Assembly: GCF_003991155.1 (NCBI RefSeq)
Contig: NZ_CP031293.1
DNA: 64,000 nucleotides
Origin: Escherichia coli
GTDB lineage: Bacteria > Pseudomonadota > Gammaproteobacteria > Enterobacterales > Enterobacteriaceae
Direction: 5' to 3' (one strand)
Every line of letters starts with the position of its first letter. The stretch's first letter is position 1. The position numbers were made by a program. This document shows positions 22,901 to 25,900 of the stretch, piece after piece.

Positions 22901-25900
22901 AAGGCGTTTATTACCGAGCAGTTTATCAACTGGTCGCTCTCTGACTCGGTCACGCGCGTGGTGTTGACGATTCCGGCCCCTGCCGATGCCAACAGTGAAG
23001 AAGTGACGGAAATCCTGCTCACCGCAGCGCGTCGCTGCTCGCTGGTGATCGACAACCCGGCACCGGAAGTCTTCCTGGTGGATCTGCAACAGGGGATTCA
23101 GATTTTCGAGCTGCGTATTTACGCCGCTGAGATGGGTCACCGTATGCCGCTACGCCATGAGATCCACCAGCTAATTCTGGCAGGCTTCCATGCCCACGGT
23201 ATCGATATGCCATTCCCGCCCTTCCAGATGCGTCTGGAAAGCCTCAACGGTAAACAAACGGGGAGAACGCTGACGTCTGCGGGCAAAGGTCGTCAGGCGG
23301 GAAGTTTATAAGGTTTTGTAGCCGGATAGTCTCATCCGGCTCACCAACAAAACAGATAGCGCAGGGAAAACTGCCACAGCCAATAGAAGAGCATTATTGA
23401 AATAACAAAATATTGCCAAAGAGAGTGCTGTTTCTTCCAAATAACAGCATAAATATATGGGATGAATAATGGTAAGGTCATTATAATACCAACTGGGCGA
23501 ATATCATCATTCTCAAGATATGTCATAACATCACAAACATTATTAATTCCTCTACCGTCGATAAACCACTCTTTGTCTTGAACAGATAAAAAATCTATCC
23601 AAAATATGCTTATAACAAACCAGATAAGGTTAAGGGAAAATGATTTCCAGTTCATCATAGATTATTCATTATTTTCATTAAAGCAGTTTTCTTTTCAAGA
23701 ATACGTCGACCATATTCACTGTATTCTCTCTGATGGGATCCTTTCGGTGCTGCAATGGAGTCTATAATATCTTGTTTATTTCTTTCAATACCACGGTTGT
23801 ATCGGGAGCCGACTACAATTAACTGCTCATCCGTTAAATTAGTGGTGTCACCTATTTCCGGATAGTCATAATGTATAAGGTCTCGTAAATGAAATGCTAC
23901 CACTCTAATGTTGAAGCGGTCATTTAGTAAGCACTGGGAAAGTTGGAACTGCTCAAAGGATGACAAAAGATCTGGATGTATCCCTATAGTCCTGGCTGCA
24001 ACGCCTAACTGTATTGCGACAGAACCGACTGAAGTAGAGTTTGAGTAGGTATTGCCTCCTCTCTTTGAAACGGCCTCTAGGATTATTTTTAATTGCAGCA
24101 CCCCCACTGGTTTAAATCTTTCTGGCATTCCGCCAACCTCAGCAGCCGCAACGCCCGCAAGTAATAATAACGGGATTTGCGCCTCTTTGGCATATTGCCA
24201 CAACATATCACGGTGATAAATCAACCATGATGTTTTATATAACCATAAGTGTGCAGTCCCCGTGCTGAATGTCCAATTAGTCGGAAGAAAACGCCATCGA
24301 AAATAATCAATGCCATTCCATTTAGGAAAGCCTAATTCATCAACTTCGCAAAAAATAAGATTATTCATTTAAAGTCCCTTATTAAAATCATTCCCAGAAT
24401 GAAGAATAGTACTATCATCAGAAAAACTGATTTGTGATGGGACAGACAAAAAATATAAAAAAGGGTTCGACTTAAGATAATCAAGATAAAACATATATAC
24501 CCAATAAACCTCAAGATGCGGGTGTGAGCACCTGAAAGTGATCGTTAATTCGGGATGTCAGAGAGTCCGCTATATCCGGCAGCGTCTGGTTAAAAAAGAC
24601 AGAAAAACGGGATACATTATATTCATGAATGGTTTTATATTCGCAGATTAGCGGTGACGTCAGTGCTTTCAGATTCAGCGCCCCCATGATATTCAGGCGT
24701 GTGCGGCAGCCTGTTGTTTTTACTGCTTTTTTCTGGCCTTTACGTATCCAGCCATAGCTGATTTTAGTGGCCTGAGTCGGATGGACTCCATCAATAAAAA
24801 GAACCGGTTCATCACCCACAGTTATTTTCAGTTCCTCATAATATTCAATGAATTGCCTTTGTTTCTCTTCACTGAATTTATGGGGGACGCCTGACGGTTT
24901 TTTGTAGGTGAAACCATTACGATGCAGCCACTTATTCATCCCCGGAATGCTGAAAATGATGTTCCATGTCCGGGTGATAAACGCAATAACATCGCGGGTA
25001 TGGTGAAATAAATTATCGGATAACTGGCTGATTAAAAGGCCGTTTGTTCAGCACTGAGTTTGCTGTCTGAGCCGCCGTTTTCGGGCTTCAGTTTTCCTTT
25101 ATTCAGGAATTCGCTGATATGGTGATCAATCGTTGTCTGATGCAAGCGTAAAGCCTGAGCAATCATGGCAGAACTCCAGCCTTCGGAAACCAGAAGAATG
25201 GCTTTAATACGATCTCTGACTCGCCCGTCACGACTGGAATCATGAAGGCGTTCAAGTTCAGCTTTTTGTTGCTCAGTAATGAATATTTTCATGTTGGACA
25301 GCATGATCTTCTGTTGCTGAAAAATCAAGCATCTTCAATGATCACGGGTATATAAGGTGAATATTTATTGTTTTTAATATAAAAATCGCTTGCCCAACTT
25401 ACAGAGTGACTGCAAGCTGGATAATATACTCGTCATACTTCAGAACGGTAAGCAAACGGGGTGAACGCTGACCTCTGCGGCTAAAGCGCGCCAGGACGGC
25501 GGTATATAAGGTTTTGTAGCAGGATGGTCTCATCCGGCTACAAACAAAACTGATAGCGCAGAAAAAACTGCCACAGCCAGTAGCCGAAAATCACAAGCGC
25601 GGTGGCATACATAAACCAGCCGCGTTTTTTTCGCCACAAAGCGAACCAGAGAAAAGGGAAAAAGAGCGGTAACGTCATTATCACACCGACATCGCGGGTA
25701 TCATCATTTTCCAGATACTCCAGCACATGGCAGATATTTTTAACCCCACCTTCATCAATCATCCACTCTTTGTCCAGCGTGGAAGTGATGACTATCTAGG
25801 GGATCGCTACAACAAACCAGATGCAGCATAAGACAAACGTGCGCGCACTCATAAGATAACCCGTAGTTTAATTTCGCTATAGCGCATACGAAATCCCACT

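What the first reader, a model, noticed from the sequence alone, without database searches (positions are those of the whole stretch)
24511..25328. Degenerate IS630-family transposase remnant inside the mscM-yjeM accessory patch
Two minus-strand ORFs (98 aa and 142 aa) in different frames match the N-terminal HTH and central DDE regions of IS630/Tc1-mariner transposases, but the C-terminal third is absent and I could not identify terminal inverted repeats. It is a plausible vehicle or scar for the rearrangement that created the duplicated module.
Basis: partly seen in the sequence, partly recalled or inferred. Interest (0 to 1): 0.4.

Follow-up and report, generated by a model that had tools for sequence, protein, structure and literature searches.

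The report
Dead ISEc40 insertion sequence copy
This is an ordinary, inactivated copy of a known E. coli jumping gene (ISEc40, IS630 family) that landed in a TA site between two genes; it did not create the neighbouring gene rearrangement.

Summary
Window 24498-25350 (minus strand) is a copy of ISEc40, an IS630-family insertion sequence. It is 97-98% identical in DNA to intact 1097-bp copies elsewhere in E. coli. NCBI's annotation pipeline already labels it "IS630 family transposase, frameshifted" in 44 complete E. coli genomes that carry the identical locus.

- The element is not cut off at one end. Both imperfect terminal inverted repeats are present, each flanked by TA.
- An in-frame 243-bp internal deletion removes residues 231-311 of the 341-residue transposase. 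That includes the second Asp and the Glu of the DD34E catalytic triad.
- A 1-bp loss in an A-run causes the frameshift.

The "vehicle or scar" idea is not supported. Two independent IS-free contigs, 94% identical to the window, read straight across the insertion point. They have one TA fewer and already carry the junction between the mscM-3' remnant and the 237-aa gene's upstream region. The "duplicated module" is a tandem of two divergent alleles (141 bp, 85% identical; the YjeO proteins about 50% identical). Its junction lies 91 bp from the IS.

Verdict: a simple, later, now dead insertion. Already known; low interest.

The parts
24498..25350 (-). Defective ISEc40 (IS630 family) copy, 853 bp, running TAC...GTA. 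Intact copies are 1097 bp.
   Evidence: Alignment to intact copies from Nissle 1917 and MS 110-3. Coordinates and lengths. blastn gives 98.3% over 749 bp and 97.2% over 106 bp. PGAP labels the same stretch 'IS630 family transposase, frameshifted'.
24496..24497 (.). TA target-site duplication, left copy.
   Evidence: Six independent ISEc40 copies are all flanked by TA on both sides. The empty site in L013/L014 has exactly one TA fewer.
25351..25352 (.). TA target-site duplication, right copy.
24498..24519 (.). Terminal inverted repeat at the transposase-3' end: TACCCAATAAACCTCAAGATGC.
   Evidence: 14 of 22 positions match the reverse complement of the other end: a terminal TACCC block and a sub-terminal AAGATGC block. 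The end is conserved in six copies.
25329..25350 (.). Terminal inverted repeat at the transposase-5' end: GCATCTTCAATGATCACGGGTA.
25035..25292 (-). Transposase fragment 1, aa 1-86 of ISEc40 Tnp (HTH_29/HTH_23). It ends at a premature stop created by the frameshift. The ORF listing extends this ORF to a TTG at 25328.
   Evidence: tblastn gives 98.8% identity to aa 1-86 of the intact protein.
25034..25037 (.). Frameshift site. The A-run has 4 bases here and 5 in intact copies, a 1-bp deletion.
   Evidence: Alignment columns 841-850; coordinates; translations.
24511..24939 (-). Transposase fragment 2: the end of the winged HTH_33, the first half of DDE_3 with the first catalytic Asp (LFIDG), then the C-terminal tail fused in frame across the deletion.
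24603..24604 (.). Junction of the 243-bp in-frame internal deletion (...AAGACAGA|AAAACGGG, with 2-bp GA microhomology). It removes aa 231-311, including D250 (DGAGYHRS) and E285 (NPIERMW).
23655..24368 (-). Context: the 237-aa gene 129 bp downstream of the IS and co-oriented with it. It has a lytic-transglycosylase-like fold and overlaps yjeO' by 4 bp.
23341..23658 (-). Context: yjeO' (DUF2645), a Citrobacter-type allele.
25444..25583 (+). Context: second copy of the 141-bp repeat. It comprises a remnant of the last 21 codons of a second mscM with an in-frame TGA, a REP-like hairpin and the 3' end of yjeO''. It is 85% identical to 23246-23386.
25541..25855 (-). Context: yjeO'', an E. coli-type allele (85% aa identity to K-12 YjeO) with a TGG-to-TAG nonsense change at codon 19.
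   Evidence: read directly from the sequence.

Best explanation
A copy of ISEc40, an IS630/Tc1-mariner-type cut-and-paste element, inserted into a TA dinucleotide. The site lies in the AT-rich spacer 129 bp upstream of a 237-aa gene, inside a 2.6-kb variable patch between mscM and yjeM that already existed.

The copy then decayed where it sat, or less likely was already defective on arrival. It carries two lesions:
- A 243-bp in-frame deletion with GA microhomology removed the second Asp and the Glu of the DD34E triad.
- A 1-bp loss in an A5 run split the reading frame.

The element cannot make active transposase, and the genomes that carry it usually hold no other ISEc40 copy. It is therefore an immobile fossil, fixed in one lineage seen in 44 of 5426 complete genomes.

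Shown here: identity, ends, target-site duplication, both lesions, and the empty site. Inferred: the order of insertion and decay, immobility, and any effect on the downstream operon.
For: - **Family and element.** Pfam and NCBIfam hits. The DNA is 97-98% identical to elements PGAP names 'IS630-like element ISEc40'. PGAP calls this locus a frameshifted IS630 pseudogene.
- **Ends and target duplication.** Both ends and the TA flanks match six independent copies.
- **Lesions.** The deletion and frameshift are mapped against the intact 341-aa transposase, which has D168, D250 and E285.
- **Empty site.** Contigs L013 and L014 come from two sequencing runs. They are colinear with the IS-free reconstruction over 1293 bp at 94% identity. 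They read CACCT-TATATA-TGTTTT where the window has CACCTTATA[IS]TATATGTTTT.
- **Copy number.** There is one copy in the window. The listed carrier genomes have one place per record (H26 and H27). The deletion variant occurs nowhere else among 5426 genomes.
Against: - The IS-free state was seen only in two short Logan contigs (1.3 kb) of unknown organism. None of the 44 complete E. coli genomes with the patch lacks the IS. A metagenome scan found no further empty site.
- Every ISEc40 copy is flanked by TA. The flanks alone therefore cannot exclude recombination between two copies.
- The ISfinder reference entry could not be consulted. The ISEc40 name rests on PGAP labels.
Confidence: 0.9

Rival explanations
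1. One reading: the IS brought in the accessory genes, or it marks the breakpoint of the rearrangement that duplicated the mscM-3'/yjeO module.
For: The IS lies inside the patch, in a ~130-bp AT-rich spacer. This spacer aligns neither to the Citrobacter yjeM-hyp236 intergenic region nor to mscM. All 44 complete genomes with the patch also carry the IS.
Against: - IS-free contigs already hold the junction between the mscM remnant and the 237-aa gene's upstream region, with a clean single-TA site.
- The remnant begins at 25444, which is 91 bp from the IS flank.
- The two modules are old, divergent alleles: 85% identity over 141 bp, and about 50% between the two YjeO proteins.
- The 237-aa-gene/yjeO/mscM order is the normal syntenic arrangement in Citrobacter, Trabulsiella, Enterobacter and Atlantibacter, without any IS.
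- There is only one IS copy. From general knowledge of the family, IS630 elements carry no passenger genes.
Confidence: 0.04
2. The 853-bp element was already a non-autonomous deletion derivative (MITE-like) when it inserted, and a full-length ISEc40 mobilised it in trans.
For: Both inverted repeats and the TA duplication are intact. Full-length ISEc40 copies are common in E. coli: about 550 records at 95-99% identity.
Against: The 243-bp deletion variant is found at no other locus in 5426 genomes, so there is no sign that it ever multiplied. The carrier genomes listed hold no helper copy. The GA microhomology at the junction fits a one-off slippage deletion in place.
Confidence: 0.06

Closest known systems
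ISEc40 (IS630 family), intact copies such as E. coli Nissle 1917 NZ_CM189243.1 1774405-1775509 and MS 110-3 NZ_CP146663.1
   Same: 97-98% DNA identity. Same ends (TAC(C/T)CAAT...CACGGGTA), same TA flanks, same gene orientation and the same N-terminal HTH domains.
   Different: 853 bp rather than 1097 bp. It lacks aa 231-311, which include D250 and E285, and carries a 1-bp frameshift and 15 substitutions.
IS630 / Tc1-mariner superfamily transposons
   Same: HTH plus DDE_3 transposase with DD34E spacing in the intact relative, a TA target duplication and short imperfect inverted repeats.
   Different: Nothing unusual for the family. This copy is catalytically dead.
Salmonella and Klebsiella plasmid IS630-family elements
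   Same: Same family and architecture, with about 90% amino-acid identity.
   Different: A different, related IS species and not the source of this copy.

Membership tests
IS630 family | Transposase matching the family model, with N-terminal HTH domains and a DDE_3 catalytic domain. | tested here: met
   For NF033545, the frameshift-corrected translation scores 127.8 bits against a cutoff of 100, covering profile positions 2-207 of 299. The single fragments fall below the cutoff at 70.4 and 32.7 bits. Pfam HTH_29, HTH_33 and DDE_3 all score above their gathering thresholds.
IS630 family | Complete DDE catalytic triad (DD34E). | tested here: not met
   The first Asp is retained (LFIDG). D250 and E285 lie inside the 243-bp deletion. 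The triad is complete in copies that are 98% identical. This copy is therefore a defective member, not a non-member.
IS630 family | Duplication of a TA target dinucleotide. | tested here: met
   TA lies on both sides here and at six independent copies. The empty site has exactly one TA fewer.
IS630 family | Terminal inverted repeats. | tested here: met
   14 of 22 positions match, in a terminal TACCC block and an AAGATGC block. The ends are conserved across copies.
ISEc40 (named element) | Near-identity to the reference element. | tested here: met
   98.3% and 97.2% DNA identity to copies PGAP names ISEc40. The ISfinder reference itself was not available, so the name is second-hand.
Composite transposon or IS-mediated rearrangement | Two IS copies bracketing the cargo, or an IS end exactly at the novel junction. 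| tested here: not met
   There is a single copy in the window. The junction is 91 bp from the IS flank. An IS-free allele has the same arrangement.
MITE / non-autonomous derivative | Multiple dispersed copies of the same deleted element. | tested here: not met
   The deletion variant occurs only at this locus in 44 of 5426 genomes.

The most novel reading that the evidence does not exclude
The IS itself offers nothing new. The most novel reading left open concerns where it landed. The patch may be a swappable two-gene cassette placed next to mscM by displacing the previous mscM 3' end and yjeO allele. The cassette would comprise a protein with a lytic-transglycosylase-like fold and no recognisable signal peptide, plus a small DUF2645 membrane protein (YjeO). 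That pairing is reminiscent of a peptidoglycan-hydrolase effector with its immunity protein. The co-oriented ISEc40 insertion 129 bp upstream might then have silenced or re-wired expression of the cassette.
Probability: 0.15. Interest if true: 0.45.

Novelty: already known. Interest (0 to 1): 0.08.

Why it matters
It matters little. The result corrects an annotation detail: this is an internally deleted ISEc40 with both ends, not a one-sided remnant. It also removes the IS as an explanation for the mscM-yjeM patch. The element could serve as a lineage marker for the 44 genomes that share it. The more interesting biology lies in the neighbouring cassette, which encodes a lysozyme-like protein and YjeO, and in how alleles of that cassette are stacked at the mscM 3' end. 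That is a separate finding.

Tried and rejected
- **Promoter and terminator scan of 23250-26050.** It found 11 promoter-like sites against 6.7 ± 3.0 expected. None lay convincingly between the IS and the 237-aa gene, so the scan says nothing about polar or activating effects.
- **Metagenome scan for the empty-site 26-mer.** No hit.
- **Metagenome scan for a patch-specific 27-mer.** The one hit is 100% identical to the window, IS included, so it adds nothing new.
- **Search for a longer IS-free contig using the L013 YjeO protein.** It returned only the same 1.3-kb contig.
- **Sequence searches for the 237-aa protein.** Pfam, NCBIfam, PADLOC and PDB sequences gave nothing significant. Only the fold comparison was informative.
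- **Test of whether K-12 YjeN is a truncated homologue of the 237-aa protein.** No similarity.
- **TA flanks as evidence against recombination between IS copies.** I rejected this argument because every ISEc40 copy has TA flanks. The case rests on the empty site instead.
- **Literature search for ISEc40.** It appears only as an entry in lists of mobile elements, with no description of the element.

Full report
**Setting.** The window is E. coli chromosome. mscM lies at 19988-23311 (+), yjeM at 25950-27452 (-) and epmA follows. The finding sits in a 2.6-kb stretch between the mscM stop and about 25900. That stretch replaces the yjeO-yjeN genes of K-12.

**Observation.** Both reported ORFs exist.
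- The 98-aa ORF matches HTH_29 (5e-11) and HTH_23.
- The 142-aa ORF matches the end of HTH_33 (1.3e-10) and the first half of DDE_3 (8e-8, profile positions 1-72 of 146).
- The NCBIfam IS630 model NF033545 hits both ORFs (1.7e-19 and 5e-8), each below the 100-bit cutoff because they are fragments.
- Joining the two frames across the frameshift gives a 260-aa translation that scores 127.8 bits, above the cutoff. It covers profile positions 2-207 of 299.

**Identity.** A search of 5426 complete E. coli genomes found the identical locus in 44 of them. PGAP annotates it there as "IS630 family transposase, frameshifted". About 550 further records hold a 95-99% identical element of roughly 1.1 kb annotated "IS630-like element ISEc40 family transposase". 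These matched the window copy in two pieces, which pointed to an internal gap.

**Anatomy.** I aligned the window against intact copies from Nissle 1917 and MS 110-3 and mapped coordinates.
- Intact ISEc40 is 1097 bp (TAC...GTA) and encodes a 341-aa transposase with D168, D250 and E285. That is DD34E spacing, with a full-length DDE_3 match (9e-38) and 251.9 bits on NF033545.
- The window copy spans 24498-25350 (853 bp) and keeps both ends.
- It has two lesions. The first is a 243-bp in-frame deletion at 24603|24604, with 2-bp GA microhomology, that removes aa 231-311 including D250 and E285. The second is the loss of one A from an A5 run at 25034-25037, which produces the stop after ...EQTAF.
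- The last ~30 codons are still read in frame after the deletion. "C-terminal third absent" is therefore only approximately right.
- The inverted repeats are TACCCAATAAACCTCAAGATGC (24498-24519) and the reverse complement of 25329-25350. They match at 14 of 22 positions, in a terminal 5-bp block and a sub-terminal 7-bp block.
- Six independent copies share these ends, and each is flanked by TA on both sides.
- No other IS630-like sequence occurs in the window.

**Empty site.** The closest non-identical homologue of the neighbouring 237-aa protein (91% identity) sits on two 1.3-kb Logan contigs from separate runs, L013 and L014. These contigs are colinear with the window over 1293 bp at 94% identity, once the IS and one TA are removed. 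They cross the insertion point without a gap. They read CACCT-TATATA-TGTTTT where the window reads CACCTTATA[IS]TATATGTTTT. That is the signature of a simple insertion that duplicates TA.

**The "vehicle or scar" idea.** Several results argue against it.
- The IS-free contigs already contain the junction between the 237-aa gene's upstream region and the remnant of a second mscM 3' end.
- That remnant starts at 25444, which is 91 bp from the IS flank.
- The repeated unit is only 141 bp at 85% identity (23246-23386 against 25444-25583). The two YjeO proteins are about 50% identical. This is a tandem of divergent alleles, not a fresh duplication.
- The order yjeM, 237-aa gene, yjeO, mscM is the normal syntenic arrangement in Citrobacter sp. 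Cf136 (89% identity for the 237-aa protein). The 237-aa-gene/yjeO/mscM part of that order recurs in Trabulsiella, Atlantibacter, Citrobacter and Enterobacter, all without an IS.

Two caveats apply. TA flanks cannot by themselves exclude recombination between IS copies, because every copy has them. And the IS-free state was seen only in short contigs: all 44 complete genomes with the patch carry the IS, and metagenome scans added no further example.

**Mechanism.** The most likely history (confidence 0.9) is a standard cut-and-paste insertion of ISEc40 into a TA in an AT-rich spacer, followed by decay in place. A less likely alternative (about 0.06) is that a deletion derivative was mobilised in trans. 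No second copy of that derivative exists in 5426 genomes. The element now lacks two catalytic residues. In the carrier genomes listed it is the only ISEc40 sequence, so it is probably immobile. That last step is an inference.

The IS lies 129 bp upstream of the 237-aa-gene/yjeO' operon and points the same way. An effect on that operon's expression is possible, but the promoter scan was uninformative.

**Comparison and novelty.** The element meets every IS630-family criterion except the complete catalytic triad, which the deletion destroyed. It is a defective ISEc40 that public records already annotate as an IS630 pseudogene. ISEc40 appears in the literature only as an item in lists of mobile elements. 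Novelty: already known. Interest: low.

Noticed in passing
[not shown]
   Followed up: partly
window 23246-23386 and 25444-25583: A 141-bp direct repeat at 85% identity. It comprises the last 66 bp of mscM, a REP-like hairpin (GCCGGAT...ATCCGGC) and the 3' end of yjeO. The second copy holds a 21-codon remnant of a divergent mscM with an in-frame TGA. It looks as if an incoming cassette displaced an older mscM-3'/yjeO allele rather than replacing it.
   Followed up: partly
window 25541-25855 (-): yjeO'' is 85% identical in protein to K-12 YjeO and carries a TGG-to-TAG nonsense change at codon 19. PGAP rescues it as a shorter 85-aa 'YjeO family protein'. It is probably a pseudogene.
   Followed up: partly
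mscM-yjeM intergenic locus across E. coli (L004 and hits H91-H130): The locus has at least four states in 5426 genomes: yjeO plus yjeN (K-12), yjeO only, neither gene (O157:H7 type, about 362 bp), and this patch (44 genomes). K-12 YjeN shows no sequence similarity to the 237-aa protein although it occupies the same operon position.
   Followed up: partly
NZ_CM129827.1 (strain ECOD1) 4410820-4414447: One of the 44 carrier genomes has an additional IS1B insertion inside the same patch, within the stretch that holds the 237-aa gene.
   Followed up: no
window 19988-23311 against K-12 (L004): mscM is only 96.7% identical in DNA to K-12 (115 mismatches), although the protein is 99.6% identical. yjeM-epmA is 98.1% identical in DNA. 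This suggests a divergent phylogroup or recombination in mscM.
   Followed up: no
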